A stretch of DNA of 64,000 bases, from the IMG/VR virus record IMGVR_UViG_3300035424_000304. One strand, 5' to 3'. Origin of the DNA: an uncultured virus (IMG/VR IMGVR_UViG_3300035424_000304) (Duplodnaviria > Heunggongvirae > Uroviricota > Caudoviricetes). Positions 27,793-52,072 of the stretch are shown one piece after another. Below the pieces are notes generated by a model, which was given only the letters and a program-made list of their open reading frames with translations, ran no database searches and was not told the DNA's origin. Numbering within the stretch: position 1 is the stretch's first letter; the number at the start of each line of letters is the position of its first letter. Position numbers and translations under genes: made by a program.

Positions 27793-29994
27793 ATGAGAAA
27801 ATATATCAAAGAAAATTCTTTCTTTATCTTCATCATTCTCATCTGCCTTCTCTTCAGCCTCATCTTAATAGGACGCCGCTGGAGGACAGAGTCCGCTAAT
27901 AAGGCTTACAACATCATACTTGACTATGAAGAGCTGGAGCTGATGGCAGAGCAAAGCGAACGAGATACTGTCTGGTGGATGAATCAATTTCAAGACATGG
28001 GGATCAATTACGTGGGGTTGATGGAAGAAAACCTGACTTCTCTGACAAAAGACCCCGCTGCCGATGTGTCCACTCTATCCATGAGTAAAGTTATGCAGGA
28101 TCCCAATTGGAAGGATAACTATCCGGAGCCGTTCGTTAGAGAAATTGACAAGCATGGCTATGATCGCTATGATATCATCGTGGAAGCGTCTGGAGCTGCC
28201 GCCGAATTTGTTGCCAAGGGATTAGAAGGGAGATTGGGAAAGCCATTTATTCACTATGAGGAGACCGATCCTATCCGTATCCATTTGGATGGAGAAAAGA
28301 AACACTATTTCCTCCTGGATGGCAGCATTAACGATGCTCTATACGCCAATAGTCCACAATATGTTACAGATATGCGAAGGGGATTTGCGTCCAGTACAGA
28401 AATTGAATCCTCGAAACTGCTGTATATTCCCCTTGGGTTGATGCCTGAGAAGGTTGCGCTGATTCAGGATGCTGGGCTGGAGATTGTGCCCAGGACGGTG
28501 ACATACGACGGCTACAATGGAGCCAGGTTCGCCGAAGACGTACTGGACGGGTATCAATCCTTTGGTATCCGTCCGAGATATATCCTTGCTGGTGGAGAGG
28601 CAGTGATCGGTGCTGACGATAAGGAGAGCAATCCGCTCTGGAACTATATTACAGAGAATGACATTCCTTTGGGACTCATCGAAACGAGCGTTCAGCGCGA
28701 GCATGTCAAACAGACGGGTTTAATTGAGATGGCAGAGGGTCAGAGTTATAATGCAGTCCGGGTCTTTTCCATGTGGGACTATGTACAGAACCGGTATGCT
28801 TATTACGGCTATGAGGGACCCGAGGAAATTGTCAACGAATTATTCCGGGCCATCACCGAACGAAACATCAGGGTGGTATATTTCAAGCCAATCAAACAGC
28901 ATGACAGCTACTTTGCCTATGTCACCGACCCGGGCGTCTATCGGGACATGTTTGAGAGTCTGGACGCAAGGCTTGCTCCCCACCACATCGTCCGAGGGGA
29001 AGCTCGTTCTATGGAGAATATCCAGTATCATCCCGTGTTCAGTCTGCCCATGGGTATTGCTGCGGGAATTGGTGGGGTTATGCTGCTGGCGCTGTTGCTC
29101 TCTCTGAATAAGAGGATTCAATTCATCCTTGCTGCTGGAGTTACCTTCGGAGTTATGGCGTTCATCATCATTGTACCCAATACCTCCCGGTTAATTATCA
29201 GCTTTGCCAACGCTGGCATTTTTGCCAGTCTCGCTGTGGCATTTTTCCTCCGGTCGGCAAAGTCCATCGGGCAATCCCTGTCGGAGACGAGCAGAGTCCG
29301 GGAGATAGTGGTGAAAAGCGTGGGTACGCTGGATGGAGCATTGCTTATTGCCCTTGCTGGAGCCATGCTGACCGCCGCTCCGCTATCCTCCACTGAATAC
29401 ATGTTGGAGATTGGTATTTTTCGCGGCGTAAAACTGGCACAGATGCTGCCTCTGGGAATGTTCTGTCTGCTGTTCCTGGCGTCCTTTGGGCTTTTTGAGA
29501 AGGAGCGTAGAGAGGATAGGCTCCAAATGAAAGATTTCGCCGGCATCCTAAATTGGACGATCCCAGTATGGGGCTTCTTGCTACTGGGAGTCCTGTTCAT
29601 GGCAGGGAGATACTATCTTGCCCGTACTGGGCATGAGACGTCTGTAACTGTCTCTTCTGTAGAACTCGTCCTGCGCAACATTCTGGAGAATATATCCTAT
29701 GCCCGACCGAGAACGAAAGAATTTCTGATTGCATTCCCCTGTATCATGCTGACGGTTTATGCCTCAGTTCGACGTATGCCATTCTGGGTGGGCCTTTTTG
29801 GCCTCGCCGGCACGATAGGGATGGCTAGTGTGATTAACACGTTTGAGCATATCCGGACGCCGCTGTATCTTGGCTTTATGCGTACCGCCGGCTCCCTCGT
29901 TCTGGGTACATTGCTAGGAATGGCGTATATTTTTATATTTGAATTTTTGTACAAAATGGCGCAAAGAAACCAGAAAGGGAAGGAGAATACATAA
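27793..29994 (+). CDS. DUF5693-like polytopic membrane protein
   Basis: N-terminal TM, large extracellular domain with AITERNIR, then many TMs with FRGVKL, RPRTKEFL and NTFEHIRTP. Confidence 0.7.
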   Translation: MRKYIKENSFFIFIILICLLFSLILIGRRWRTESANKAYNIILDYEELELMAEQSERDTVWWMNQFQDMGINYVGLMEENLTSLTKDPAADVSTLSMSKVMQDPNWKDNYPEPFVREIDKHGYDRYDIIVEASGAAAEFVAKGLEGRLGKPFIHYEETDPIRIHLDGEKKHYFLLDGSINDALYANSPQYVTDMRRGFASSTEIESSKLLYIPLGLMPEKVALIQDAGLEIVPRTVTYDGYNGARFAEDVLDGYQSFGIRPRYILAGGEAVIGADDKESNPLWNYITENDIPLGLIETSVQREHVKQTGLIEMAEGQSYNAVRVFSMWDYVQNRYAYYGYEGPEEIVNELFRAITERNIRVVYFKPIKQHDSYFAYVTDPGVYRDMFESLDARLAPHHIVRGEARSMENIQYHPVFSLPMGIAAGIGGVMLLALLLSLNKRIQFILAAGVTFGVMAFIIIVPNTSRLIISFANAGIFASLAVAFFLRSAKSIGQSLSETSRVREIVVKSVGTLDGALLIALAGAMLTAAPLSSTEYMLEIGIFRGVKLAQMLPLGMFCLLFLASFGLFEKERREDRLQMKDFAGILNWTIPVWGFLLLGVLFMAGRYYLARTGHETSVTVSSVELVLRNILENISYARPRTKEFLIAFPCIMLTVYASVRRMPFWVGLFGLAGTIGMASVINTFEHIRTPLYLGFMRTAGSLVLGTLLGMAYIFIFEFLYKMAQRNQKGKENT

Positions 29995-30482
29995 TGTTAA
30001 AAGAACAAAAAGATAAGAGTATTTCACCGAGAGTGGCTAAAGTCTGCTTTCAAGCGGTATTTTTGCTTGGCATAATCTTGCTTGCGGTTGTTGTCAGATT
30101 TCTCTCCAATGACATCAGCCGGCAGACGAATGAAAAGCAGCTCTATCAGTTCAATCTGGCTGTCCCTCCGTCACTGCGGCAAACTGACTACGCAGATGTG
30201 GTGAGCATTGCTGATTATCCCAGTATGTATTTCAATGCGGATGATTATGCCATAATGTGGCGCTTTGCCGATACTTATAATATTGACAAGTTTCATATCC
30301 GGAACCTTGTCACAGGTGGCGATAGCAGACGCCTAAAAACTTTTCCGGACAGCTTAAAGCAGATTGATAGTTATATCAAGCAGAATGACATCTCAAGCGA
30401 GGACGCCCAAAATGCTATCAATTATATTTTGTCGCAGCAGGCAGGAGATATGCCCCAACAATTTGCATATCTCGTGGGTTAA
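29994..30482 (+). CDS. membrane-anchored hypothetical protein
   Basis: 162 aa, single N-terminal TM, overlaps the upstream stop. Confidence 0.6.
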   Translation: MLKEQKDKSISPRVAKVCFQAVFLLGIILLAVVVRFLSNDISRQTNEKQLYQFNLAVPPSLRQTDYADVVSIADYPSMYFNADDYAIMWRFADTYNIDKFHIRNLVTGGDSRRLKTFPDSLKQIDSYIKQNDISSEDAQNAINYILSQQAGDMPQQFAYLVG

Positions 30483-30567
30483 TACCATTAGCTGTGAGAA
30501 CCCCGCCCCGAATTGGGAAAAAAGTTAGATGTAGGTGTCATATTTTTTGTAAGGGAGGTGCTAACTC

Positions 30568-31749
30568 ATGATAGAACTCAGAGGGCAGTATAATGCCGCC
30601 AAGGTATTTACGGACAACATTGACCGGGACGGTATTTCGCAGATTATTGCCATGATGAATCAAGCATACATGGCCGACAGCCGGATTCGCATCATGCCGG
30701 ATGTACATGCCGGGAAAGGTTGTGTCATTGGGACGACCATGACAATTAAGGACAAAGTCTGTCCGAATCTAGTTGGGGTGGACATCGGGTGCGGAATGGA
30801 GACTGTGAGGCTCCGGGAAACGGAAATTGATTTGGAGAAGTTGGACGATTTCATTAACGCCGAAATCCCGTCTGGGTTCGATAATCGAACCAGTCCTCAT
30901 GACTTGTCCAAGAAAATCGACCTCTCCAAGTTGTGCTGTGCAGACAGGCGGGAAATGCTGGACAATTATTATTGTTCTATCGGCAGCCTGGGCGGAGGAA
31001 ATCATTTTATCGAGTTGGACAGGGATGATTCTGGCAGTCTCTACCTTGTCGTCCATTCTGGCAGCCGCCTGCTGGGCGGGAAGGTTGCCAGTTATTATCA
31101 GCGGGAGGGGGCCAGGACACTGACCAAGGAGGCGCAGGTTGAGGCCATCGAGAAGATGAAGGCTGCTGGGCGGCAGGCGGACATTCAGGGAATGCTCAAA
31201 TCCACAGATTTTAATGTCCCGAAAGACTTGGCATACGTTACAGGGTCTCTCCTGGAGCAATATCTGAACGACATGAAGATTGCTCAGGAATTTGCTGCCC
31301 TGAACCGGCAGGCAATTGTCTGTGATATTGTTAAGGCGTTTGGGCTTCATGTGGAGGAACAATTCACTACAACCCATAATTATATCGATTTGGAGAACAA
31401 TATTCTTCGGAAAGGAGCCGTCTCCGCACAGAAAGGGGAGAAGATCTTGATTCCGATGAATATGCGGGACGGGTGCCTGATTTGTTTGGGCCGTGGTAAC
31501 GAGGATTGGAACTGCTCCGCTCCTCATGGAGCTGGACGACTTTTGCGACGAAGTGATGCAAAAGAGCTGCTGGATTTGGAGGAGTTCCAGATGGAGATGG
31601 AGGGCATCTATTCTACCTCCATTGGCCTCAGTACCCTGGATGAAAGTCCCATGGCATATAAGCCCATGGGAGGAATTCTGGAAGATATTCGTCCCACAGC
31701 CTCCGTTCTGGAAATTATTCGCCCCGTTTATAATTTCAAGGCCCACTGA
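30568..31749 (+). CDS. rtcB: RtcB family RNA ligase
   Basis: MPDVHAG, VGVDIGCG, GSLGGGNHFIE, HSGSR, HNY, RKGA, SAPHGAGR, DESPMAYK. Confidence 0.95.
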   Translation: MIELRGQYNAAKVFTDNIDRDGISQIIAMMNQAYMADSRIRIMPDVHAGKGCVIGTTMTIKDKVCPNLVGVDIGCGMETVRLRETEIDLEKLDDFINAEIPSGFDNRTSPHDLSKKIDLSKLCCADRREMLDNYYCSIGSLGGGNHFIELDRDDSGSLYLVVHSGSRLLGGKVASYYQREGARTLTKEAQVEAIEKMKAAGRQADIQGMLKSTDFNVPKDLAYVTGSLLEQYLNDMKIAQEFAALNRQAIVCDIVKAFGLHVEEQFTTTHNYIDLENNILRKGAVSAQKGEKILIPMNMRDGCLICLGRGNEDWNCSAPHGAGRLLRRSDAKELLDLEEFQMEMEGIYSTSIGLSTLDESPMAYKPMGGILEDIRPTASVLEIIRPVYNFKAH

Positions 31750-32887: not shown

Positions 32888-33275
32888 CGGAATGGACTAT
32901 GACGTTCAGACTACAGTAAATTTCCAGCTGGACTTTGACGGATCCGGCGAATTCAATATGTTGCTGCTCCCGAATATACAGAAGCAGTTTGTGCAGCATG
33001 TTAAGGAAGTCTATGAGAAGGACAATACCCTAGGCACCGGCTATGTCTCCAGTGATCTGAATTTCCGTTTTGATGGACGTATGGTGCAGCTGGAATATAC
33101 CTTTCACTGCCATGACGAAAACGAGCGTGAAGCGGAGAGCTTCTCCACCTACAGTGTGCAGTGTATTCAGGAGACACTGGAGGAGTTTGGCTGCAAGATC
33201 AGGAAAATTGAATGTAAAGCTGAGGAAACAGACATGATGTGGCTGGATCGGCTGGAGGATGCGATTTTCGGATAA
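32880..33275 (+). CDS. acidic hypothetical protein
   Basis: About 131 aa, GGAGGTG RBS. Confidence 0.6.
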   Translation: MDNGMDYDVQTTVNFQLDFDGSGEFNMLLLPNIQKQFVQHVKEVYEKDNTLGTGYVSSDLNFRFDGRMVQLEYTFHCHDENEREAESFSTYSVQCIQETLEEFGCKIRKIECKAEETDMMWLDRLEDAIFG

Positions 33276-33322
33276 AGGACGATGGAGATACAAAACAGGG
33301 TAAAACAAAAGGAGGATGCTTT

Positions 33323-34009
33323 ATGAAATACCAATTCAGAACAGACAGTGAAACAAAAGACCCCACCTGTAACAGAATCGATAAGGACTTCGAACTGAAA
33401 GAACTCCGATTCCTCGTTTCCCATTTGGGGCCAGGCGATATTTCCGATGACGATCTTGGTCAAATGTTGACATTGGTGCGGAGAGGTTCCAGCAGAGACA
33501 TCGACCCGGTCTTCCAGACTGGAAACTTCCGCTGCTGGCTGGATCGGTATGTGTTAAAGAACTATTTCCGGGTGGAGATTTCTATTTTGGATCCAGCGCA
33601 TCCGTTCCCCTCCCAAAAGGAACTTGGGGAAATTATGAAACATTATGGGATATACGGCGAGGCACGATACTTCATCATGTACGGAACCAACAAGGTTCCC
33701 ACAACAATTTCGCTCTCCGTGGCAACGGATGAGGAGATGAACCCTATCACAAAGCCCCTCCCGCTCACTCTCAGGCAGGCCCGCGTCCTTGATTCCAGAG
33801 CTAAGGGTTGGTCATACATGGATATCGCTATGGCTGAAGAATGCAGTGTGGACAAAGTTATTGATACCTTGATATCGATTCTTATCAAGTCCCGTCAGTA
33901 CGGGTTCCGCCAGATTTGGCCAGAAGAGATGGAGATGACTTTCTCTGAGGATGAATATGCCAAGGCAGTGAAGCTACCGGAGGAAAAGGAAGGGAAGGAA
34001 GCTAAGTGA
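33323..34009 (+). CDS. hypothetical protein with C-terminal LuxR/sigma4-like HTH
   Basis: LTLRQARVL....GWSYMDIAMAEECSVDKV. Confidence 0.55.
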   Translation: MKYQFRTDSETKDPTCNRIDKDFELKELRFLVSHLGPGDISDDDLGQMLTLVRRGSSRDIDPVFQTGNFRCWLDRYVLKNYFRVEISILDPAHPFPSQKELGEIMKHYGIYGEARYFIMYGTNKVPTTISLSVATDEEMNPITKPLPLTLRQARVLDSRAKGWSYMDIAMAEECSVDKVIDTLISILIKSRQYGFRQIWPEEMEMTFSEDEYAKAVKLPEEKEGKEAK

Positions 34010-34188
34010 TGGATACTATTCAGTATATGATCGAGGAACTGTGTCTCTCCGGCGCAGTCGGCGTTGGTAACTGCTGCAAATCCACGTTATACCGGTATGT
34101 CCGGCAAATCAACGAACGGTTGGAGCGGGAGAACTACGATTGGCGAGTAAAAGTAGATGCAAAGGACATGACTATCATTGTAGTCTGA
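34006..34188 (+). CDS. small hypothetical protein
   Basis: 60 aa, coupled to the upstream gene. Confidence 0.45.
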   Translation: MMDTIQYMIEELCLSGAVGVGNCCKSTLYRYVRQINERLERENYDWRVKVDAKDMTIIVV

Positions 34189-34316
34189 CCCGACGATTTT
34201 CCCAAAAGACAACCCCCTCTCTTTTCACGTTTTGGGAGAAGAGAGGGGGATTTTTGTGGGGATTATGAGGTATTCAAAGCCAAGAATCCAGGGGGATGTT
34301 TCCTGGCGAACCTCGT

Positions 34317-34363
34317 AAAAATCCCCGGTCTCTTCCCATAGTAGGAAAAGACAGAGGATTTTG
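34317..34363 (-). terminator. terminator of the tRNA operon
   Basis: AAAATCCTCTGTCTTTTCC-loop-GGAAGAGACCGGGGATTTT directly after tRNA-Ser. Confidence 0.6.
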
Positions 34364-34367
34364 CGGA

Positions 34368-34455
34368 TGGCGAAGAGGGAGGGATTCGAACCCCCGGAGC
34401 CTTTCAGCCCGTCGGTTTTCAAGACCGACACCATCGACCGCTCGGACACCTCTCC
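34368..34455 (-). tRNA. tRNA-Ser (UGA)
   Basis: Cloverleaf with long variable arm, loop CT-TGA-AA, GGTTCGAATCC, encoded CCA. Confidence 0.95.
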
Positions 34456-34458
34456 GTA

Positions 34459-34534
34459 TGGCAGCCGCAGATGGAATCGAACCACCGCCTCCAGGGTCAG
34501 AACCTGGCGCACTAGCCACTATGCGATGCGGCTA
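34459..34534 (-). tRNA. tRNA-Gln (CUG)
   Basis: CCAGG-TT-CTG-AC-CCTGG, GGTTCGATTCC, encoded CCA. Confidence 0.9.
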
Positions 34535-34601
34535 TATATGAACTCCGACTCCCAGGCAATTCCCATGCCGGCCCAGAGAATACTGGGAGATAGGAGTTCT
34601 G

Positions 34602-34677
34602 TGGTACCTTTGATTGGACTCGAACCAACAACCTTCTCCGTATGAAGGAGCTGCTCTGCCAACTGAGCTACAAAGGC
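34602..34677 (-). tRNA. tRNA-Met (CAU), elongator type; Ile2 not excluded
   Basis: GCTCC-TT-CAT-AC-GGAGA, GGTTCGAGTCC, encoded CCA. Confidence 0.85.
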
Positions 34678-34681
34678 ATAT

Positions 34682-34759
34682 TGGGGTGGACGGCGGAACT
34701 CGAATCCGCGACCTCCTGGGCCACAACCAGGCGCTCTAACCCAACTGAGCTACGCCCAC
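34682..34759 (-). tRNA. tRNA-His (GUG)
   Basis: CCTGG-TT-GTG-GC-CCAGG, C73 discriminator, encoded CCA; the -1 base is T. Confidence 0.95.
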
Positions 34760-34760
34760 A

Positions 34761-34837
34761 TGGCGACTATGATGGGACTCGAACCCACGGCCTCCAGCGT
34801 GACAGGCTGGCGCTCTTCGCTACTGAGCTACATAGCC
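34761..34837 (-). tRNA. tRNA-Asp (GUC)
   Basis: CCAGC-CT-GTC-AC-GCTGG, encoded CCA. Confidence 0.9.
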
Positions 34838-34841
34838 ATAA

Positions 34842-34917
34842 TGGCGGCTCCTGCAGGGTTCGAACCTGCGACTTTCCGGTTAACGGCCGGACGCTCTACC
34901 AACTGAGCTAAGGAGCC
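34842..34917 (-). tRNA. tRNA-Asn (GUU)
   Basis: TCCGG-CC-GTT-AA-CCGGA, encoded CCA. Confidence 0.9.
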
Positions 34918-34921
34918 ATAA

Positions 34922-34998
34922 TGGCGACTACGAGGGGACTCGAACCCCCGACCTCCGGCGTGACAGGCCGGCGCTCTTCGCTACTGAGCTACGTAGCC
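34922..34998 (-). tRNA. tRNA-Asp (GUC), second copy
   Basis: CCGGC-CT-GTC-AC-GCCGG, encoded CCA. Confidence 0.9.
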
Positions 34999-35004
34999 AA
35001 ATAT

Positions 35005-35080
35005 TGGCGGTTCCTGCAGGGTTCGAACCTGCGACCTTCCGGTTAACGGCCGGACGCTCTGCCAACTGAGCTAAGGAACC
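35005..35080 (-). tRNA. tRNA-Asn (GUU), second copy
   Basis: TCCGG-CC-GTT-AA-CCGGA, encoded CCA. Confidence 0.9.
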
Positions 35081-35177
35081 GTATGGTAAAGGGGAGGGTA
35101 TTTACCATCAAAGCTTGCAACCTCCTCAGGGAACCCCTCTTTGATTATCCGGCATATGCGCACTTAACCGGCCCTTC

Positions 35178-35252
35178 TGGCAAGGGCGAGGCGATTCGAA
35201 CACCCGTCAACGGTTTTGGAGACCGCCGCTCTACCAATTGAGCTACACCCCT
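35178..35252 (-). tRNA. tRNA-Trp (CCA)
   Basis: GCGGT-CT-CCA-AA-ACCGT, TGTTCGAATCG, encoded CCA. Confidence 0.9.
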
Positions 35253-35260
35253 ATATTCTG

Positions 35261-35308
35261 AAAAGAAAAACTACGCCAGCCTTTGGGTCTTACCCATTGG
35301 CTGACGTA
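35261..35308 (-). terminator. attenuator terminator between the leader peptide and the first tRNA
   Basis: TACGTCAGCC-AATGGGTAAGACCCAAA-GGCTGGCGTA-GTTTTTCTTTT (10-bp stem, inner hairpin, U-tract). Confidence 0.8.
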
Positions 35309-35348
35309 TCATGCATGCATATCTAGTGAGACAGATATTCAATCCACC

Positions 35349-35477
35349 TCACCCTGTCACCAAACAGGGATTTCTATGCAAACCATACTTTGCCAAGGGC
35401 GCAACGAACCGGGACTGGTGCATATCTGACCAATCCTGATGATTCATATTCTGCCGAATGAAGCAAGTACGCAGCAT
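35349..35477 (-). CDS. tRNA-operon leader peptide (42 aa, MLRTCFIRQNMNHQDWSDMHQSRFVAPLAKYGLHRNPCLVTG)
   Basis: RBS AGAAAGGAG 9 nt before the ATG; lies between a sigmaA promoter and a terminator; 14-codon run matching the operon tRNAs. Confidence 0.8.
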   Translation of the reverse strand: MLRTCFIRQNMNHQDWSDMHQSRFVAPLAKYGLHRNPCLVTG

Positions 35478-35513
35478 ATTAGTGATCTCCTTTCTGGTGA
35501 AGTCTATGGACCT

Positions 35514-35542
35514 ATTGTAGATCGGTTTTCTCAAAATGTCAA
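35514..35542 (-). promoter_or_regulatory. sigmaA-type promoter of the leader/tRNA operon
   Basis: TTGACA-N17-TACAAT. Confidence 0.8.
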
Positions 35543-35734
35543 GACCTATTTTTAATATTTTTTTGTCTCCGTGCATAGTATATAATGAATAGGACGCCGG
35601 TAAGGGTAATAGGAATATATATGGGCTTAAATTTCCTCACGGATGCAATCCTCCTTCCTAAGACTGATTCGTATAGGGGGAAACCGTGGAAAGTATTATA
35701 AGGATGAAGGTCGCAAAAGTTCCTTGCGTTATTC

Positions 35735-35762
35735 GATATTTTTTTAGACAAACGCATAATAT
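35735..35762 (+). promoter_or_regulatory. representative copy of the element-wide ATA-N16-CATA promoter motif
   Basis: GATATTTTTTTAGACAAACGCATAATAT; about 26 copies with identical spacing upstream of ORFs (listed in findings). Confidence 0.75.
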
Positions 35763-35792
35763 AAAGAAATCATAACAAGGAGGAAGTTGTCC

Positions 35793-36815
35793 ATGGCTGA
35801 GCAATTTGCCGCTTTTTCTGCCTGGGTTCAGATCAAGACCGGGACAGTCCCATACATATCCCTGCTTTCTATTCTACCGAAGGATATCTTCCAGTACATC
35901 CTCATCGGTACTGCCGCTATTCTTCTTCTGCTCATTACCCTCCTTCTGGTTGGGATTGGAAGGGGGATGAAGAAGGGGATGAGGCAGAGGGCGATCCGAA
36001 AAGCGTTTGGAGTTACTGACTTCAAAAAATTTCAGACTCGCCGCATGGGCCGCCCAGGGTCAAAATATTATACTGACAATGGCTCCAACTGCTTTGAAAT
36101 CGTTCTTCCTCACTGGAAGTTCGCTAATGAAGACGGCAGCAGACAGAATCGCCGAGTCAATAAAGTCATCTGGGAGGAGTGCCGTCTGTGGCTCCATGAC
36201 AGGCAAAAGACCTACGTTCTGACCACCAGCGACCCATACGACATGATTTATCTGGTCCATACTCTTCGGGATAGGGGTGTTGACGTTGCTCCCTGCGCCC
36301 AGGAACTGGATAAACAGGATCAGCTTGAAAAAGCGAAGAGAGACCCGGAGGTTGTTCTGGGTGAATTGCTGGAGAAATGCGAGGGGGAAGAAGATCGGTT
36401 TGCTGAAATCTGCCGCCAGCGCATGACTATCCGAGGCATGTCTCTCACTGACGCTCCGGGTAACAACAATGGCATCCAGTTCTTTTTCCGTAAGGACTCC
36501 CAGCCGGTCACCGTGCGCTGCCAGCTTGTTCCCAGGGATTATCTGGTTGGGATCGAGGAAATGAAAAGGGTGAGAGAGGGGGCATCGGCATTGTTTGCTC
36601 CTTCCTGCATGTATATTACAACTGGACAGGTGTCCGTGGCGGCGGCAGGGTTCGCTTTGACAAATGAAATCAATATCGTTGCCAATGACCAGTTAGTGGA
36701 GATACTGGAAGAGAATAAACCCGTCCCGTCGGACAAGGCATACACTCGCTGGGAGTTGACCAACGAGGATCTGAAGAATCTACTCTCTGAGGATTTGCTG
36801 TCCAGAATTTTCTGA
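35793..36815 (+). CDS. membrane-anchored protein with C-terminal Mrr-like restriction-endonuclease fold, probably catalytically degenerate
   Basis: N-terminal TM; C-terminal F.EIC..RM..RG...T...NNNGIQFF...VTVRCQ...VG..EM...YITTG.VS.AA..FA. Confidence 0.55.
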   Translation: MAEQFAAFSAWVQIKTGTVPYISLLSILPKDIFQYILIGTAAILLLLITLLLVGIGRGMKKGMRQRAIRKAFGVTDFKKFQTRRMGRPGSKYYTDNGSNCFEIVLPHWKFANEDGSRQNRRVNKVIWEECRLWLHDRQKTYVLTTSDPYDMIYLVHTLRDRGVDVAPCAQELDKQDQLEKAKRDPEVVLGELLEKCEGEEDRFAEICRQRMTIRGMSLTDAPGNNNGIQFFFRKDSQPVTVRCQLVPRDYLVGIEEMKRVREGASALFAPSCMYITTGQVSVAAAGFALTNEINIVANDQLVEILEENKPVPSDKAYTRWELTNEDLKNLLSEDLLSRIF

Positions 36816-36889
36816 TACGAGAGAGCGCTTCTAGGCGAGGCGCTCTCATCTCTTTCAGGGACTGAATTTCTGATATTCTTGGCAGAAAA

Positions 36890-37432
36890 ATGTCGATCAT
36901 AGGCGCTTACTGCGAGAAGGTAAAGAAATGCCTTGTGATGGAGGACCTTGATACCACAGGGTCCAAGTCCAGGCTTCGATACGGAAGCAAGCTCAGGAAC
37001 CGGAAAATTTCTTCGTTTGCGTACAAGAAAATGACTGAATCCATCAGAGCGCAGGGATACAAACGAAATTTCGCCGTATACAAGGTGCCTCCTGAGCATA
37101 CAAGCCAAATAGGAAAATTGAGATATATGCGGCAAATGGGCTTGTCTATCCATGAAGCCGCCTCCTATGTCATTGGCCTGGTCGGCATGGGGAAAACCGA
37201 GCTTCTTGGTTTGCCTCCGGAGCTGGAAGAGCTGCTTCCCGAATCTGCGCCGCAGGACCTGAAAAAGCGGTGGGCGATGGTGTCCCGCGCTTTCAAAAAT
37301 ATCAGAACTCATGCGTTCTATCAACGAGTTATTCCAGCCGACTGGAGCGGACGGAAGAAAAAAGGACTCAAGAATTATGCTGCCATGTTGAAGGAAAAGG
37401 ATGACTTGAGCCTAATTCCAAGCAAGGCTTAA
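36890..37432 (+). pseudogene. 5'-truncated IS200/IS605 TnpB-related gene (second family)
   Basis: VMEDL, SSFAYKK, VPPEHTSQIGK, GLSIHEAASYVIG; RuvC-I and N-terminal lobe absent. Confidence 0.7.
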
Positions 37433-39143: not shown

Positions 39144-40091
39144 ATGGAATATAACAAGCCGGTTTCGAGCCTGAAGCCTGGTGACGATATTGAAGGGTTT
39201 TACATCCTGAAGAATGCGGCGAGCAAAACATCCTCTTCAGGAAAGCCTTTTTTATCTGGGTCTCTTTCTGATAAAACGGGCAGCATTGATCTGAAAATCT
39301 GGGACTATCCAGGCCCGATTTCCTCCACGAATGAAGGCTCTGTTGTGAAAATCCGAGGAAATGTGGATTCTTACAGAGGTTCACCGCAACTGGTAGCATC
39401 AAGGATAAGGCTGATACAGGAAGGAGATCGCTTTGATCCTGCCGCCCTTGTTCCCGTTGCTCCTATTGACGCAGATGCGGCCTGGACGGAGCTTTTGGCT
39501 GCAACTGCCGCTATCCCTGACAAGGATTACCGAGACATCTGCCGGTGGATGATTGAAAAGTATGGAGAAAAATTCCGGGCTTTGCCTGGAGGGAAGAGCG
39601 TCCATCACAGCTTTTTAAACGGGCTTCTGATGCACACGCTATTCATGGCCCGTACGGCGCAGACAATGGCAGACTTGTATGTGGGAGTTGTAGACCGAAG
39701 TCTTCTGGTTGCAGGAACCATTCTTCACGACTTTGCTAAGTGCGAAGAGTTTGAAATCTCTAATATGGGGCTAGTTACTGATTACTCTGTAAAGGGACAG
39801 CTTCTGGGGCATTTGGTCATGGGCGCCCAAGCAGTTGCGCAGGCGGGGAGAGAAGTGGGTGTGCCGGAGGAGAAGTCCGTGCTGCTCCAGCACATGATAC
39901 TCTCTCACCATGGTGAACCCGAATTTGGCGCAGCTGTCCGCCCCATGTGTGCAGAGAGTGAATTGCTGCACATCATCGACCTCATGGACAGCCGCATGGA
40001 GATTTACCGGGAGACGCTGGGGGAGATGGAGAGCGGGACATTCTCGCAGAGGATTTTTGCCTTGGGCAAGAAGGTATATAAGCATCAATAG
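39144..40091 (+). CDS. yhaM: YhaM/Cbf1-like 3'-5' exoribonuclease (OB + HD)
   Basis: LSDKTGSI..KIW OB fold; HHSFLNGLLMHT, ILHDFAK, GQLLGH, HMILSHHG. Confidence 0.85.
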   Translation: MEYNKPVSSLKPGDDIEGFYILKNAASKTSSSGKPFLSGSLSDKTGSIDLKIWDYPGPISSTNEGSVVKIRGNVDSYRGSPQLVASRIRLIQEGDRFDPAALVPVAPIDADAAWTELLAATAAIPDKDYRDICRWMIEKYGEKFRALPGGKSVHHSFLNGLLMHTLFMARTAQTMADLYVGVVDRSLLVAGTILHDFAKCEEFEISNMGLVTDYSVKGQLLGHLVMGAQAVAQAGREVGVPEEKSVLLQHMILSHHGEPEFGAAVRPMCAESELLHIIDLMDSRMEIYRETLGEMESGTFSQRIFALGKKVYKHQ

Positions 40092-46712: not shown

Positions 46713-49700
46713 TTAAACAACAGATCTTCTTTTTTTGTGGTACCAGATGAAGCCAATGCCAACAGAAATCGCGGCAACTCCAATCATGGTAATGCTCCGA
46801 AGTCCAGGTCCGCCGGTTTCGGGAAGCTCAGCAATGGAGCCAAACACATTGATATAATTGATCTCAACAATGGTTCCGCCATATACTGTGCCAGAAATTT
46901 CCCTGCTGGGAGTCAGCAATGATGAATCTTCATTGTTACTGCCGAAAACCGCTGAGGCTTTCTCTTCTTCGATCTTTCCAAGATATTCCCTTTTGTCTGA
47001 GCCGACAGGAATAACAGACAAATCCAGAGTGCCTTCCTGAACATAGGAATTGCAGTCATACTCACTTTCTGTGATATTGTATGTTACATAATCGGGAAGA
47101 TCGCGGATGATGGCATAGCAACCACCAGCAAGAAGTAGCTCTCCTCCATCATTCATGGTTCCAACACTAAGAATATTACCCTGGTTATCATAGGTTACAC
47201 ATGGATATTCCCCTTGGAGGTCAGTGCCGTCGCCATTCTTGAGGTTGACAGTAAAGGCGAACTCGCGATTGTCTTCTTCCCCGCCAACCAACGTTTTCCG
47301 GATTTTAAGAGAGTTGTTGTACGCAGTTCCTCCGCTTATGATTTTTGCAGACGGGATCGTATACTGAATCCAGCAAGTAGAGCCAGATGCACCTCTCTCA
47401 AGATAGTAGAACTGAAGCTGATGTGGGGATGTATCCCCCTGTTCAATGTAATCCCAGAGGTTTACATACTCGCCAACAGCAGAGTGGCAACCGCCAAGGT
47501 CCAAGATGAGTTTTCCATCCAGAAACATCCAGATATCGTCATCTCCAAAGAAGAGATATTCCAGATCGCCGCAATAGTCATGCGGGATCGTGAAATCGAT
47601 GGTGAAATGCATTCCGAAATAGCTGTTATGATCCAATGCGTCATCGGAAACAGGAAGCGTTTCCCAACCACCTAAGCCAAAAGCCCTCTTTGCTTTGTAA
47701 TTTTCATTACCAAACACCAGGTCATGCCCATCTGCTCCAAAGGTTGGCGCAGAGTCCATTGGCCAAAAATTGTTTGTCCAGATATTAGTGTACTTTGGCT
47801 GAGGATTTTTGAAGGATGACAAATTTGTTGCCGGCGTACCTTTCACGGCTTCAAGGGTGTAGGTATCACCGGAACGGTTGAATTGGAGAGAATGCCCGTT
47901 AACAACGGTTTTGCCCACCAAAGAAGTCGGCCCAAAAAGATCGGGAACAGAAATATCGCTGTTAAATACAATATTTCCATCACTGTCAAGCTGTTTGGCG
48001 ATACCAAAGAAGCAGCCCCTGAATGCCTGTGCAACCCCATTGATTCGATTAAACTGATTGAAATACATCCCGTTGACCATCTCCGATTGCAAACCGGTGC
48101 CGGTATTGGCGTTTCCAAATGCGAATTTCGCCCCATTACCGGTGTAGTTATTGGGATTGTTAATTCCCTGAGACTTGGTGTTTGCATAAGCGGTATTCGA
48201 GTTTGACTGTGTAGATGTATTGGCTTGACCAGAAAAACCCATGCTGCCAGACATAGCTGAATAAATATATCCATCTGTAATGTCATAGTCCCAAAAATCC
48301 ACCGGAGACTCAGACGTTCCGTCGGTAGGAATATACAGAATCCTAATAAATGCATTGTTTTTCAGAACCACAGTGGATGGAGACTCAATACCATCAGAAA
48401 TATTTGTCAGACTGAGATCGTAAAAACTTTCCAATCCTAAGTCATCCTTATTATAGACATCCCAGTCCTCCCGCTCGGTACTTTCTGGATTTCTGCCATC
48501 TTTCAAAACCCAAAGTTCTACTGGTGCATAGTGAGCATCAAAAGTCTTGAGCTTATCAATATACGACAAATCAGGAGCATCGCGGTAACGGAATGTTTCT
48601 TCCAAGTAGATCTTTTTGATGGATTGTTCCGTCTTGACTGTTCCATCGCCATTCAGCGTCAGCTTCATTATTTTGGGCGTAATGTTTGCACCATTCTGCG
48701 GCAGAATTCCACCTGATGTATCAATAATGTCCAAGGCGCCTGTTGATGATTTATCAATCCCATCAATCAATCCATAATACTGCACGGTATAGTTCACAAT
48801 TTCTTCCGCTCCTGATGTAATAACAATCGGAGAGAAAATATTATTAAGCTTAACCGTGATTACTCCATTCTGAGTTGTGATTTGGTAGGAAAATGCTGGG
48901 TTGTCAGTCTTGTTCAAAATCCAGGTTAACGGAGCCGTCCTTTGAGGCAGAGTCACTTCTGTGGACGCTCCCGCTGCATAGTAATGGACGGAAGAAACAT
49001 CCTCTAATTTTTCCGACACAGAGCCGGCAACATCGTTAACTTTTACACTGTAAAAGCCGCAATCTGAGGCAATCAGTTCTACGTCGTATGATCCATTTAC
49101 CATTGTTTTTGAGGCAAACATTACAGAAATATTGTTCAAATTTGCCCCACTTGGCAGGGAAAGCATCCATTCCCCATCAATTTTATTGATAGAATTTTGT
49201 GCGAAGGTCAGTTTTCCATCCGAAGACAGCTGCGTGCCAAAGACCATCGATCCAACATAGCGTTCAAGATCAAACCCGAAATCGCCCAGAAGGTCGGACA
49301 CTTCCTCAAGTGGAACACGGTAATTAGCACTACCGGAAGATGAACTTTCAAGACGGGCCTTTGTTATTTCGCCAATCTGCGTGGGAATCCCATCAATGAT
49401 AACCTTTACCGGAATGGAAACATCAATTTCGTCGGTAAACAGATCATTGACATCATCCATCAGTCCATGTTCAATCTTCCAACACAGAACCCGAAAGCAA
49501 GATTCTTCAATCCTTCTCAAGGGCAGTTCTCCATTTTTTGCCGCAGCAAGGACAGGAGGAATTTGTTTATCAGGATAAGGAACCAATGCCATATCCGCCC
49601 CAGCCTTGAGGGCTGCCAGGCTTTGATTCCCATCACCGACATAACTGGTTACTGCACCCATATTCAGATCGTCAGTAATAGCCAGTCCTTCAAAGCCGAT

Positions 49701-52072
49701 CTGGTTTCGAAGGAGGCTGTAGACGGCAGGGGAAAGTGACGCAGGATTCTGTTTATCCAGATAATTGATCGTATTATGCGTCACCATTACAGCCCGGTTC
49801 CCTGCATTCATGCCGGCATAGAAAGGGATCAAATCGTTGTACCTGAAATCATTTTCTGACAGATAATTTACAGCAAATCCGTTATGGGTGTTGCTGGAGG
49901 TTGAACCGTAACCGGGAAAGTGCTTCAGCGTAGTCCCCATGCCGGCTTCTTCCATTCCCTTCACGGCTGCTTCGACATAGCTGGCATTGTCCAAACCATC
50001 TCCACCCCATGTTCTGGCATAAATATATCCTGTACTCGCCACGTCAGCCACAGGTGCATGATTCATATTGACTCCAAGGTTTTTAAGAAAAGCAGCTTTA
50101 TCTGCTGCGTCCGCAAGAACTGCGGGCAGACCACCATTTGTCTTCAAATCCTGAGGACCAGGGAATGCAGACGAGCGATATTGGGGCAGATTGCTGGCGC
50201 GGTTGACCTTACCTCCCTCTTCGTCAATGCTGATGATAAGGGGGATTTTGGAATCCTTCTGAGTCTGGTCAATCTTTGCTTTAAAGCTCTCCGGTGATTC
50301 ATTCACAAGATCCGGCTGGAATACAATATATCCACCAGGATGATATTTATCCGTAATTGCCTTCACATCCTCTGCAGTTCTTACGGTAGTATCGGAATAG
50401 TGAAGCAGGAATAGCTGTCCGACTTTTTCCTCCAGCGTCATTTGATTCAGAAGTCTTCTTGCCTTAAGCTCCGTTGCGGAAGACCAGTGGTAAGTTCCAC
50501 TTTTAACATGAATAAAAGTAGCGCAATCAGAGGGTTTTTTGTTCAGCCCACTATCAACTGAATAAACACCACTAGCCTTAAGCTCAGTCCCATCTTCGGT
50601 CACTGTCACAGTCAGTGTATATTCTCTTACGTCTTTACAATTACTTCCCGAAAGATCTCTAATGAGAAACCCATAAGTTCCAGCCTTTGAAAAACTAATT
50701 GGATACAGCTGTTTTTACCCGTTCCATCAATTATCTGTTCTGGTGAAAAATAACCGACATCCGGAGACACTTCTATTGCTTCGATTCCAACCTTAACAGG
50801 ATGCGGAGACTCCCCTACAAAATTGACTTCAATTGCAGGACTAAAGTCAACAGAAACAGCTGGGATTTCAACAACAAACACAACCCCTTCTTTATTTTCT
50901 GTTCCATCTGGCATATGTGTATATGTGACATCTGAAATGTAAAGGGAACCCGATTGCTCATCTACAAGAATCTCTAACCGGTAATGTTCAGCAGGAAAAT
51001 GATTGCAGGATATTTCAAAAACATAGGTTCCAGGACTGAAGAACAGGATATCAGAATAATCTACGGTTCCATTCCCTACCCGATGGATATCAACCCAGTT
51101 CGGCATTGTAACATCGGGTCCTGATATCTTGGATAGATGGAACCATCTATCTGCGTCATCATCATCTGGCGCAACCAGATTAACATTTATTCCATAGCGC
51201 ACAGGATCATATTCAATGGACTCTTGTTCATCTCCCATAGAAGGCTCTTCCTGCTCTATAGAAGGCCCTTCTTGGTTCGGCTGATCCCCCTGGCTGGGCC
51301 GGCATACCTCAGAATGAATATGCTCCTGCATTCCACACTGTGGATTATCAGACATACCCCCGTCCTCTTCGATAAAACAGGAGTCATCGTGCTGGTGAAC
51401 GACCGCCTCAAGCATCCCGCAAATTGACCATCCATTCATATCCCAGCATTCCGCCCGATGAAGGTGAGAAGAAAGGTCAGCCTCGCCACAGATGGTGGTA
51501 CGGCGCATTTCATAGCATGCATCTGTATGGGCATGAGTCTGGACTGCTTCGCCTTCTGAACAGAGCAGAACACTTTCAGTTTGAAAACATTCCTCTGTAT
51601 GGACATGCGTTTCATCGCATTCTTGGCCACAGATGCATTTTTCCTGATTTTCATAGCAGGACTCTGTATGCTCATGTGGAATTACAGGCAGGACTGCTTC
51701 TTGACAAATAAGAACCCTGGACTCTTCATAGCAGTCCTCCATATGTGTATGCGCCTCATGTTCAGGTAAATCGCATACCAGTTCCCCATCGTCGTTATAG
51801 CAGTTTTTATCATGTGTGTGGATGATTTTGTCTGAGTAACCGCATACCAGTATACCTTCCCCATCATAGCATTCTGGGTTATGGCTATGTGCCATTGCTC
51901 TGCAACGCAAACTCCGTCTATCTGGTAATTTGTAGCACTCACTGGTATGCTGATGTTCTTGCAGAGAGCAGTCATCCTCTACGGCATAGCTGACACACGG
52001 GCTGACCAGCGACAGCGAAATTGCCATAGTGAGAATGAGAGCTCCGATTCTTTGAGAAAGAATCCTCTTCAT
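46713..52072 (-). CDS. LPXTG surface protein split by one frameshift: HxHxxxC repeats, pilin-like Ig domains, GH3 (NagZ-like) domain, fibro-slime/PA14 domain, LPETG anchor
   Basis: Signal peptide MKRILSQR; MTLEEKVGQL, IDEEGG, KHFPGYG, ITDDLNM; FFGDDDIWMFLDGKLILDLGGCH; LPETGG + TM + KKRR. The two ORFs join if one A is added at 50712-50716. Confidence 0.75.

What the first reader, a model, noticed from the sequence alone, without database searches (positions are those of the whole stretch)
34368..35542. tRNA operon apparently controlled by a multi-tRNA-sensing leader-peptide attenuator
Seen on the minus strand, in order: sigmaA promoter (35514-35542), RBS and 42-aa ORF (35477-35349), strong intrinsic terminator (35308-35261), then 9 tRNAs (Trp, Asn, Asp, Asn, Asp, His, Met, Gln-CUG, Ser-UGA). 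Codons 9-22 of the ORF (35453-35412) are CAG AAT ATG AAT CAT CAG GAT TGG TCA GAT ATG CAC CAG TCC = QNMNHQDWSDMHQS. This run uses all seven amino acids served by the operon and no others; every Gln codon is CAG, matching the CUG anticodon, and TCA matches UGA. Twelve nt past the run, CCC-TTGGC-AAA-GTAT-GGTT-TGCAT (35399-35376) can pair with ATGCA..ATAC..GCCAA-T-GGG in the terminator 5' arm, which is anti-terminator geometry. Established: trp/his/ilv-type attenuators work this way, but they control amino-acid biosynthesis genes. Inference: ribosome stalling when any of these tRNAs is uncharged, depleted or cleaved switches on replacement tRNAs, for example against host anticodon nucleases. I do not know of a described leader-peptide attenuator for a tRNA array.
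Basis: partly seen in the sequence, partly recalled or inferred. Interest (0 to 1): 0.93.

Follow-up and report, generated by a model that had tools for sequence, protein, structure and literature searches.

The report
Leader-peptide attenuator gating a tRNA array
A tiny translated "test" gene, written in exactly the seven amino acids whose tRNAs lie just downstream, sits inside a switchable transcription stop signal, so this mouse-gut mobile element probably makes its nine spare tRNAs only when ribosomes run short of them.

Summary
On the minus strand there is a near-consensus promoter, a ribosome-binding site, a 42-codon ORF, a strong intrinsic terminator ending 8 nt before tRNA-Trp, and nine tRNAs.

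**Codon match.** ORF codons 9-22 (QNMNHQDWSDMHQS) use all seven amino acids of the array and no others. This is the longest such run in all six frames of the 64 kb window (14; next longest 8). None of 6000 random seven-amino-acid sets scores as well.

**Folding.** Free RNA pairs the ORF start with the segment after the run, which leaves the terminator able to form. Ribosomes held on codons 1-22 free that segment to pair with the terminator's 5' arm (-24.4 kcal/mol; 7 of 1000 shuffles as good). This stops at codon 24.

**Diverged lineage.** A second leader lineage, known as peptide only, keeps the run. Its flanking changes are into set amino acids.

**Expression.** Metatranscriptome contigs from three studies begin at 35488-35491. 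All four runs laid bridge the terminator.

**Wider pattern.** My own survey found the same layout in cultured Caulobacter and Cellulophaga phages. This scan had already noted like cases on other DNA (71 notes). Ten literature searches found no description.

**Verdict.** It is a new variant of leader-peptide attenuation and has not been tested experimentally.

The parts
35514..35542 (-). Sigma-70-type promoter TTGACA (35542-35537), 17 nt spacer, TACAAT (35519-35514)
   Evidence: 11 of 12 matches. The in-frame upstream translation is conserved in lineage 2 (G[L/I]DILRKPIYN). No other promoter-like site lies on this strand between it and the tRNAs.
35488..35491 (-). Coincident upstream ends of metatranscriptome contigs (approximate 5' edge of the transcript; predicted start about 35507)
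   Evidence: X17 contig 34364-35491, X18 34946-35488 and X19 34835-35490, all with 0 differences. No RNA contig covers 35492-35603 in X18 or X19. DNA runs hold the whole stretch.
35487..35490 (-). Shine-Dalgarno GGAG, 9 nt before the ATG
   Evidence: Read directly from the sequence.
35349..35477 (-). Leader ORF, 42 codons plus TGA: MLRTCFIRQNMNHQDWSDMHQSRFVAPLAKYGLHRNPCLVTG
   Evidence: The identical peptide is called on 310 contigs (P0003).
35462..35478 (-). Region 1 (ORF start, including the AUG), which pairs with region 2 in ribosome-free RNA
   Evidence: P(1:2)=0.86 in the free transcript. The helix alone is not better than shuffles (172 of 1000).
35412..35453 (-). Control-codon run, codons 9-22: QNMNHQDWSDMHQS
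   Evidence: longest set-run in six frames of the window; 0 of 6000 random sets score as well, and 1 of 14 positions changed in lineage 2 against 14 of 28 elsewhere.
35375..35400 (-). Region 2, the antiterminator 5' strand (codons 26-35)
   Evidence: Duplex with region 3 is -24.4 kcal/mol (z -3.2; 7 of 1000 shuffles; 0.6% of 660 background windows).
35325..35369 (-). Two small hairpins between regions 2 and 3; the ORF stop codon lies at their junction
   Evidence: MFE. One search lists the first on the other strand.
35292..35321 (-). Region 3: antiterminator 3' strand, overlapping the terminator 5' arm
   Evidence: pair list 108-133 with 187-216 in transcript numbering.
35261..35308 (-). Intrinsic terminator: 15-pair interrupted stem (35308-35272) and U-run, ending 8 nt before tRNA-Trp
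   Evidence: Stem duplex is -25.8 kcal/mol.
34368..35252 (-). Array of nine tRNA genes: Trp, Asn, Asp, Asn, Asp, His, Met, Gln(CTG), Ser(TGA)
34318..34362 (-). Strong hairpin with U-run after tRNA-Ser: the end of the operon
   Evidence: -36.4 kcal/mol for the 88-nt stretch. The X17 RNA contig ends at 34364.

Best explanation
This is a ribosome-mediated (leader-peptide) transcription attenuator whose output is a nine-gene tRNA array rather than biosynthetic enzymes.

**How it would work.**
1. Transcription starts at the promoter at 35542-35514.
2. In RNA that carries no ribosome, the start of the leader ORF (region 1) pairs with the segment just after the control run (region 2). The terminator (regions 3:4) then forms, and RNA polymerase stops 8 nt before tRNA-Trp.
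3. A ribosome that translates the leader quickly moves onto region 2 (codons 26-35) and covers it, so the terminator still forms.
4. If ribosomes are held up anywhere on codons 1-22, region 1 stays occupied and region 2 stays free. Codons 9-22 ask in turn for Gln, Asn, Met, His, Asp, Trp and Ser tRNAs.
5. Free region 2 pairs with the 5' arm of the terminator, and polymerase runs on into the tRNA genes.

Because the products are the very tRNAs the run asks for, the circuit is a supply-sensing negative feedback.

**Shown (in silico or from sequence):** the parts, their order, the codon match, the alternative helices and their dependence on ribosome position, conservation of the run, and co-transcription of leader and array.

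**Inferred:** that stalling really controls read-through, and what causes the shortage. Candidates are cleavage or depletion of host tRNAs during a conflict, amino-acid starvation, or a mismatch between host tRNA supply and the element's codon use.
For: **Codon match**
- The 14-codon run uses all 7 array amino acids and no others.
- It is the longest such run in six frames of 64 kb (next longest 8).
- 0 of 6000 random 7-amino-acid sets score as well on the upstream 330 nt.
- All 3 Gln codons are CAG, matching anticodon CUG.

**Architecture**
- Promoter with 11 of 12 matches.
- SD 9 nt from the ATG.
- Terminator 8 nt from tRNA-Trp.
- No other promoter-like site in between.
- No Rfam riboswitch or T-box.

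**Switch**
- In the transcript cut before the terminator's 3' arm, free RNA gives P(1:2)=0.86 and P(2:3)=0.01.
- With region 1 occupied and the lead ribosome on codons 1-22, P(2:3)=0.86-0.91.
- This falls to 0.71 at codon 23, 0.12 at codon 24, and 0.00 at codons 29-43. The permissive zone therefore ends where the run ends.
- The 2:3 duplex (-24.4 kcal/mol) rivals the terminator (-25.8). It beats 993 of 1000 dinucleotide shuffles and 99.4% of 660 background windows.

**Evolution**
- Six close variants all keep the run.
- Lineage 2 is a 65%-identical lineage found on over 100 contigs. It changes 1 of 14 run positions against 14 of 28 others (Fisher p=0.006).
- 8 of its 14 outside changes are to set amino acids (p=0.015).
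- All four changes flanking the run are into the set (I7M, R8M, R23W, F24S), which lengthens the run to 18.
- The two changes in region 2 (K30G, G32S) fall in codons that lie in internal loops of the antiterminator (pair list).

**Expression**
- RNA contigs of three studies start at 35488-35491.
- One 1128-nt contig runs from there to the end of tRNA-Ser.
- All 4 runs laid bridge the terminator.

**Class**
- My pipeline scored 40 other tRNA blocks in 13 cultured phages.
- 8 have p<=0.05 (2 expected) and 4 sit at the floor of 1/301 (0.13 expected).
- The hits are in Caulobacter phages BL64 and C2 and Cellulophaga phage phi4:1, with terminators after the leaders.
Against: - **No experiment.** Nothing here measures read-through.
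- **Equilibrium folding.** In the full leader the terminator is favoured (P about 1) whatever the ribosome position. The switch must therefore be kinetic, as in classical attenuators.
- **Single-ribosome model.** With one 30-nt footprint, the antiterminator is disfavoured at 5 of the 14 run codons (10 and 16-19: P(2:3) 0.03-0.16). Region 1 can re-pair behind the ribosome there. The model then needs trailing ribosomes or steric exclusion.
- **Helix 1:2.** It is no better than shuffles (172 of 1000).
- **No covariation test.** I could not obtain DNA of a diverged relative. The RNA helices have no nucleotide covariation test, and the prediction from H13Y (a tRNA-Tyr in the lineage-2 array) is untested.
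- **Read-through seen everywhere.** Contigs bridge the terminator in 4 of 4 metatranscriptomes. This fits induction, but equally a leaky terminator or DNA carried over in the libraries.
- **Codon nuance.** TCC is not a standard match for anticodon UGA.
- **Host type.** The hosts are probably Clostridia. In Bacillus, transcription often outruns translation (recalled, not from a call), which would weaken a trp-type mechanism.
- **Not universal.** 32 of 40 surveyed phage tRNA blocks show no matched leader.
Confidence: 0.7

Rival explanations
1. The terminator is a constitutive, leaky terminator (or a processing or insulating hairpin) in front of the tRNA operon. The 42-codon ORF is incidental, and the codon match is chance.
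For: The terminator is thermodynamically dominant in every modelled state. RNA contigs bridge it in 4 of 4 runs laid. Helix 1:2 is not significant.
Against: The run is the longest of its kind in 128 kb of six-frame sequence, and it sits exactly in the 255-nt leader. 0 of 6000 random sets match it. It has a good SD. The run is conserved and lengthened in a diverged lineage. The antiterminator is in the top 1%.
Confidence: 0.08
2. The leader is a general translation-stress sensor. Any slowing of ribosomes (antibiotics, ribosome damage, poor initiation) opens the terminator, and the particular codons do not matter. This resembles antibiotic-responsive leaders of Firmicutes resistance genes, or the stress-induced tRNA operon of Anabaena.
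For: In the model any hold-up on codons 1-22, including the non-cognate codons 1-8, gives the antiterminator. Ribosome-mediated attenuation responding to drugs is known in Bacillus (PMC4191407 and PMC6851288, search listing).
Against: This reading does not explain why 14 consecutive codons use exactly the array's seven amino acids. It also does not explain why changes next to the run in lineage 2 go into that set.
Confidence: 0.12
3. The ORF encodes a functional small protein that is merely co-transcribed with the tRNAs. Its composition reflects the protein's function.
For: The peptide is called as a gene on hundreds of contigs and is conserved.
Against: There is 50% divergence outside the run against 7% inside it. 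No family or homolog exists beyond two lineages among 1.84 billion representatives. The ORF overlaps every strand of the alternative RNA helices.
Confidence: 0.05
4. A protein or small-RNA factor, not the ribosome, controls the terminator (TRAP-, PyrR- or T-box-like).
For: Firmicutes commonly use such systems instead of leader peptides (established knowledge, recalled).
Against: No Rfam match at E<=1 in 33000-37000. No repeated binding motif was noticed. This reading does not explain the codon run.
Confidence: 0.05

Closest known systems
Multivalent leader-peptide attenuators of enterobacterial amino-acid operons (ilvGMEDA: Ile/Leu/Val; thr: Thr/Ile), and trp, his, leu, pheA (recalled; pheL paper PMC3082878 seen in the listing)
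   Same: Promoter-proximal short ORF with a run of regulatory codons, an intrinsic terminator, mutually exclusive antiterminator pairing, and a read-out of charged-tRNA supply through ribosome position.
   Different: The controlled genes are tRNAs, not enzymes, so the sensed molecules are the products themselves. Seven amino acids are sampled, mostly once to three times each, rather than long runs of one to three. The control codons lie between regions 1 and 2 rather than inside region 1. The ORF runs on through region 2. The host is probably a Firmicute.
T-box riboswitches
   Same: Terminator/antiterminator leaders of Firmicutes that respond to uncharged tRNA.
   Different: T-boxes bind tRNA directly, need no translation, and control aminoacyl-tRNA synthetase and amino-acid genes. 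There is no T-box match here at E<=1.
Stress-induced long tRNA operon (trn) of Anabaena PCC 7120 (PMC8421152; PMC10272220, abstract start in the listing)
   Same: A spare tRNA array that is silent by default and switched on under translational stress.
   Different: By the PMC10272220 title and abstract start, that operon is controlled by a protein repressor (TrcR). PMC8421152 contains none of the words attenuat-, leader or terminator.
Ribosome-mediated attenuation of Bacillus resistance genes (bmrCD PMC4191407, yxjB PMC6851288; listing)
   Same: Shows that leader-ORF stalling can control intrinsic terminators in Firmicutes.
   Different: There the stalling is caused by antibiotics on particular nascent peptides, not by cognate-codon supply, and the outputs are proteins.
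Leader ORF plus terminator in front of tRNA blocks of cultured Caulobacter phages BL64 and C2 and Cellulophaga phage phi4:1 (found here; annotated only as hypothetical proteins)
   Same: The same layout and codon match. Examples: QFVQIQVV before Phe-Val-Ile-Ile-Val-Gln-Gln; RQIQFVRVNR before Val-Ile-Val-Gln-Asn-Arg-Phe; QRLHLQELEQP before Pro-Glu-Gln-His-Leu-Leu-Arg.
   Different: Unrelated sequences and hosts (Alphaproteobacteria, Bacteroidota). They are analogues, not homologues, of the window's leader.

Membership tests
Leader-peptide (ribosome-mediated) transcription attenuator | Short ORF with ribosome-binding site and start codon in the 5' leader, downstream of the promoter | tested here: met
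   GGAG 9 nt before the ATG; 42 codons; promoter 11 of 12. RNA contig ends at 35488-35491 place the ORF inside the transcript.
Leader-peptide (ribosome-mediated) transcription attenuator | Cluster of regulatory codons cognate to what the operon supplies | tested here: met
   14 of 14 codons in the array's 7-amino-acid set, with all 7 used.
Leader-peptide (ribosome-mediated) transcription attenuator | Intrinsic terminator between the leader ORF and the first structural gene | tested here: met
   Stem 35308-35272 plus U-run, 8 nt before tRNA-Trp.
Leader-peptide (ribosome-mediated) transcription attenuator | Alternative antiterminator helix that uses the terminator's 5' arm | tested here: met
   -24.4 kcal/mol; 7 of 1000 shuffles as good; the best partner in the leader.
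Leader-peptide (ribosome-mediated) transcription attenuator | Geometry: a ribosome stalled on the control codons frees the antiterminator strand, and a ribosome that passes them masks it | tested here: met
   With region 1 occupied, P(2:3) is about 0.9 for codons 1-22, 0.12 at codon 24 and 0 at codons 29-43. A single-ribosome model is ambiguous at 5 of 14 run codons.
Leader-peptide (ribosome-mediated) transcription attenuator | Nucleotide covariation supporting the alternative helices in relatives | tested here: inconclusive
   Only identical DNA copies were retrieved (L161-L164). The diverged lineage is known as peptide only.
Leader-peptide (ribosome-mediated) transcription attenuator | Read-through increases when the cognate charged tRNA is limiting | not testable with these tools
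   Needs reporter assays, Term-seq or Ribo-seq.
Classical amino-acid operon attenuators (trp/his/ilv type) | Controlled genes are amino-acid biosynthesis (or aminoacyl-tRNA synthetase) genes | tested here: not met
   The only genes between the leader terminator and the operon-end terminator are nine tRNAs.
T-box riboswitch | Match to the T-box covariance model (specifier loop, T-box sequence) | tested here: not met
   No hit at E<=1 in 33000-37000.

The most novel reading that the evidence does not exclude
Codon-matched leader-peptide attenuators may be a widespread, undescribed way for phages and other mobile elements to gate their tRNA genes. Each tRNA block would sit behind a miniature test gene that polls exactly the tRNAs the block encodes, making a self-correcting supply sensor. 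In this element the circuit sits near an RtcB RNA ligase gene. It covers Asn, Asp and His (three of the four queuosine-family tRNAs), with Tyr appearing in the sister lineage's leader. It could therefore act as a detector of host tRNA-cleaving defence toxins that switches on replacement tRNAs.
Probability: 0.5. Interest if true: 0.92.

Novelty: new variant of a known kind. Interest (0 to 1): 0.85.

Why it matters
- **New use of a classic mechanism.** Leader-peptide attenuation is a textbook mechanism, but it is known only for genes that make or charge amino acids. Here the same logic appears to regulate tRNA genes directly, with the ribosome used as a meter of seven tRNA species at once.
- **How phage tRNAs are controlled.** If true, it explains how mobile elements and phages decide when to express their tRNA sets. 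It gives a concrete, testable link between tRNA-targeting bacterial immunity (or starvation) and phage counter-measures.
- **Annotation.** It offers a rule for the many unexplained mini-ORFs between phage tRNA genes.
- **Tractable systems.** I found the same layout in cultured Caulobacter and Cellulophaga phages, so the idea can be tested at the bench now.

Tried and rejected
**Searches for diverged DNA relatives all failed.**
- An exact 42-nt search of viral contigs gave nothing.
- The neighbour proteins as queries in viral contigs gave nothing.
- The lineage-2 leader in viral contigs gave nothing.
- RtcB as anchor gave only ~50%-identical genes in unrelated ~77-kb phages and in gut Clostridia MAGs, none with this array.
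- The metagenome scan with an alignment of the Mrr-like neighbour gave four copies identical in the leader and four distant homologs without tRNAs.
- 399 sampled Clostridia genomes gave no match, which shows nothing about absence.
- Isolate phage and plasmid collections hold only tRNA-level similarity.

**Other dead ends.**
- No whole genome is held for the window, and the metagenome records behind L161 and L164 are not held. I could not extend the context to decide between phage and plasmid.
- Equilibrium folding with a ribosome mask did not show switching. I replaced it with folding of the transcript as it exists before the terminator's 3' arm is made.
- Logan contigs cannot give RNA levels or 3' ends, so the ratio of terminated to read-through transcripts is unknown. 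Stretches without RNA contigs are not evidence of silence.
- T-box or other riboswitch: rejected.
- The longer 75-codon reading of the ORF (P0006): rejected because it starts upstream of the promoter and of the RNA contig ends.
Full report
**What is there**

On the minus strand ARAGORN finds nine tRNA genes between 35252 and 34368: Trp-CCA, Asn-GTT, Asp-GTC, Asn-GTT, Asp-GTC, His-GTG, Met-CAT, Gln-CTG and Ser-TGA. Rfam confirms all nine. In 33000-37000 it finds nothing else at threshold, and no T-box at E<=1.

Upstream of the array, in order:
- a TTGACA-17-TACAAT promoter at 35542-35514, 11 of 12 matches;
- GGAG nine bases before an ATG at 35477;
- a 42-codon ORF ending at TGA 35351-35349;
- a long interrupted hairpin, 35308-35272, followed by a U-run that ends 8 nt before tRNA-Trp.

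A second strong terminator follows tRNA-Ser at 34362-34318. The unit is therefore promoter, leader ORF, terminator, nine tRNAs, terminator. The scan finds no other promoter-like site on this strand between the leader promoter and the tRNAs. The tRNAs must therefore be transcribed through the leader terminator.

**Is the codon match more than chance?**

Codons 9-22 read QNMNHQDWSDMHQS. These are exactly the seven amino acids served by the array, all of them present and no others.
- Over all six frames of the 64 kb window, runs made only of these seven residues (frequency 0.266) decay geometrically. There are three of length 8, none of lengths 9-13, and this one of length 14.
- I scored the 330 nt upstream of the array with a best-window binomial statistic. 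I then replaced the true set with 6000 random seven-amino-acid sets, and none reached the observed score (7.83 against a maximum of 6.73).
- All three Gln codons are CAG, matching the CUG anticodon. CAG is also the element's preferred Gln codon (451 against 154 CAA).
- One nuance: the final Ser codon, TCC, is not a standard wobble partner of anticodon UGA.

**The RNA switch**

Positions below are transcript positions, counted from 35507 as position 1.

At equilibrium the full leader always forms the terminator, whatever part is masked by a ribosome. This is expected for a kinetic switch. I therefore folded the transcript as it exists just before the terminator's 3' arm is made (positions 1-216).
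- Free RNA pairs the start of the ORF (region 1, 35478-35462) with the segment that begins 12 nt after the run (region 2, 35400-35375). P(1:2) is 0.86, and the terminator's 5' arm is left available (P(2:3)=0.01).
- When region 1 is occupied and the lead ribosome's A site is on any of codons 1-22, region 2 pairs instead with 35321-35292, which includes the terminator's 5' arm. P(2:3) is then 0.86-0.91.
- The value falls to 0.71 at codon 23 and 0.12 at codon 24, and to zero for codons 29-43, where the ribosome sits on region 2.
- The zone in which a held-up ribosome favours read-through therefore ends exactly where the control run ends.

The antiterminator duplex (-24.4 kcal/mol) is nearly as strong as the terminator (-25.8). 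It is the best partner of the terminator arm anywhere in the leader. It beats 993 of 1000 dinucleotide shuffles and 99.4% of 660 background windows.

Weak points of the model:
- Helix 1:2 alone is not better than shuffles (172 of 1000).
- With a single 30-nt footprint, region 1 can re-pair behind the ribosome at codons 10 and 16-19 (P(2:3) 0.03-0.16). The model then needs queued ribosomes or steric exclusion.

**Relatives**

The leader peptide is called on 310 contigs in identical form (longest 245,787 bp). Five close variants differ only outside the run (I7M/R8G/N36S, F24S, L28V, C38L), and one has lost its stop codon.

A HMMER search of 1.84 billion representatives found one further lineage at 65% identity, present on more than 100 contigs: MLQACYMMQNMNYQDWSDMHQSWSAAPLAGYSLHRGLHLVTSGAD. 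Compared with the window:
- 1 of 14 run positions differs against 14 of 28 others (Fisher p=0.006).
- 8 of the 14 outside changes are into the seven-residue set (binomial p=0.015).
- All four changes flanking the run are into the set (I7M, R8M, R23W, F24S), so the run grows to 18 residues.
- The single change inside the run is His to Tyr. This predicts a tRNA-Tyr in that lineage's array, which I could not test because no DNA of that lineage was reachable.
- The in-frame translation of the promoter (G[L/I]DILRKPIYN) is conserved while the sequence between promoter and ATG is not.
- The two changes in region 2 fall in codons that form internal loops of the antiterminator (pair list).

The only DNA copies retrieved (L161-L164) are identical in the leader. 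No nucleotide covariation test was therefore possible.

**Expression**

The stretch is held by runs from 15 studies, by their records mostly mouse-gut metagenomes. Six of these runs are RNA libraries. I laid Logan contigs of four metatranscriptomes.
- X17 has one 1128-nt contig covering 34364-35491 with no differences. It runs from just inside the predicted transcript start to the end of tRNA-Ser.
- X18 (34946-35488) and X19 (34835-35490) end at the same upstream place and have no contig over 35492-35603.
- X20 has a contig at 34725-35367.
- All four bridge the leader terminator.

By the tool's own caution, coincident contig ends in several studies are a weak hint, and RNA libraries can carry DNA. 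The data nevertheless fit a transcription unit that starts at the predicted promoter and, at least sometimes, reads through into the array. They cannot give the terminated fraction.

**Context**

The window looks like part of a large mobile element, a jumbo phage or a megaplasmid.
- Most large ORFs have no Pfam family.
- It encodes a gyrase or topoisomerase pair, NrdD, a sigma factor, a SpoVG-like protein, a serine recombinase, a transposase and giant surface proteins.
- No copy of its RtcB above about 53% identity exists in one genome for each of 185,579 species. The nearest are gut Clostridia.

Near the array lie three genes that bear on its possible role:
- an RtcB RNA ligase (30568-31749);
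- an HD plus OB-fold protein (39144-40091);
- an Mrr-type nuclease-domain protein (35787-36815).

RtcB next to a tRNA array that is rich in Asn, Asp and His tRNAs is suggestive of tRNA damage and repair. That link rests on recalled knowledge of tRNA-cleaving toxins, not on any call.

**Is it a one-off?**

This scan's notebook holds 71 notes of similar arrangements in at least 66 other genomes. These are unchecked AI notes, so I ran my own test. From the tRNA-similarity hit list I picked 13 cultured phages with several tRNAs. The choice was mine, not random, and Caulobacter phage C2 was added after seeing BL64.

I scored every block meeting these criteria, and dropped the others before counting:
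- at least 2 tRNAs;
- gaps of 130 nt or less;
- at most 9 distinct amino acids (at most 10 for C2);
- at least 120 nt of upstream sequence.

Results for the 40 blocks scored:
- 8 have p<=0.05 against random amino-acid sets (2 expected).
- 4 are at the floor of 1/301 (0.13 expected).
- 32 show nothing.

The strong cases:

| Phage | Leader run | tRNA block that follows |
|---|---|---|
| Caulobacter phage BL64 | QFVQIQVV | Phe-Val-Ile-Ile-Val-Gln-Gln |
| Caulobacter phage C2 (homologous leader) | RQIQFVRVNR | Val-Ile-Val-Gln-Asn-Arg-Phe |
| Caulobacter phage C2 | 24 of 25 residues in the set, including Trp | Pro-Thr-Lys-Leu-Leu-Leu-His-Ala-Ser-Ser-Ser-Trp |
| Cellulophaga phage phi4:1 | QRLHLQELEQP | Pro-Glu-Gln-His-Leu-Leu-Arg |

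Further observations on these cases:
- BL64's counterpart of the second C2 leader lacks Trp, and its block lacks tRNA-Trp.
- In one search, four of the five leaders examined are followed by a canonical GC-rich hairpin with a U-run before the tRNAs. The two have hairpins with weaker U-runs.

The layout is therefore recurrent but not universal, and it occurs in culturable systems.

**Literature**

Ten full-text searches found no paper describing leader-peptide attenuation of tRNA genes.
- The Anabaena tRNA-operon paper PMC8421152 contains none of the words attenuat-, leader or terminator (term search only).
- The follow-up PMC10272220 attributes control to a repressor (title and abstract start only).
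- The phiCbK genome paper PMC3556154 mentions tRNA genes and predicted terminators but no attenuation (passages read).
- Subscription-only papers are outside the library.

**Verdict**

The best explanation is a ribosome-mediated attenuator that meters the supply of seven tRNA species and feeds back on the genes for those same tRNAs (confidence 0.7). It works like the multivalent ilv and thr attenuators but fails their membership criterion of controlling biosynthetic genes. I class it as a new variant of a known kind. The trigger (nuclease attack, starvation or codon-supply mismatch) is open, and no experiment has yet tested the switch.

Noticed in passing
window 27793-31749 (+): A DUF5693 protein (733 aa), a 162-aa ORF and an RtcB RNA ligase lie in a row, 2.6 kb from the end of the tRNA array and convergent with it. 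This may be an RNA-repair module accompanying the spare tRNAs.
   Followed up: partly
window 39144-40091 (+): A 315-aa protein with an OB-fold (tRNA_anti-codon) and an HD domain, the make-up of YhaM-type 3'-5' exoribonucleases (name recalled).
   Followed up: no
window 35787-36815 (+): An Mrr_cat-domain protein divergent from the leader promoter. It has a graded series of homologs from 99% to 36% identity, which shows that several diverged lineages of this element exist in public assemblies.
   Followed up: partly
window 34534-34601 (-): The 68-nt spacer between tRNA-Met and tRNA-Gln folds into a strong hairpin (-30 kcal/mol) without a U-run. It may be a processing site. The 97-nt Trp-Asn spacer is also structured.
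   Followed up: no
P0001 (variant of the leader, 1 contig): In one variant the leader's TGA stop is lost and the ORF (68 aa) runs on through the terminator. This is either a natural 'translate through the terminator' mutant or an assembly error.
   Followed up: no
window 34678-34761, run X17: One RNA contig, about 90% like the window, joins tRNA-Asp directly to tRNA-Met with 4 other letters in place of tRNA-His. It may be a diverged array lacking His at that position. The shorter side of the joint is only 28 letters, so it may be another organism.
   Followed up: no
L173 (Cellulophaga phage phi4:1) 4388-4561 and 5330-5535: Two leaders share an almost identical upstream sequence (..ATAATTTGTTTTATCCAATTAT, then the same first six codons). 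Each is followed by a terminator and a different tRNA block. They look like duplicated promoter-leader cassettes; one is annotated as hypothetical gp075.
   Followed up: partly
L172 (Caulobacter phage BL64) 6722-6817 and L181 (phage C2) 15266-15340: Homologous leaders share the tail AGRSRMDDGGT but differ in their codon-matched heads, and sit in front of differently composed tRNA blocks. The host system is genetically tractable.
   Followed up: partly
L002-L080 (about 77-kb viral contigs): A large population of gut phage contigs carries RtcB about 3-6 kb from loosely spaced tRNAs (Gln-Met-Tyr-Met-Thr and variants, 200-400 nt apart) whose membership varies between contigs.
   Followed up: no
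window 2739-13028 (+): A 3429-aa protein with 27 SpaA (prealbumin-like) repeats, together with a 1298-aa GH3 protein at 46713-50609. Giant surface-type proteins are unusual cargo if the element is a phage.
   Followed up: no
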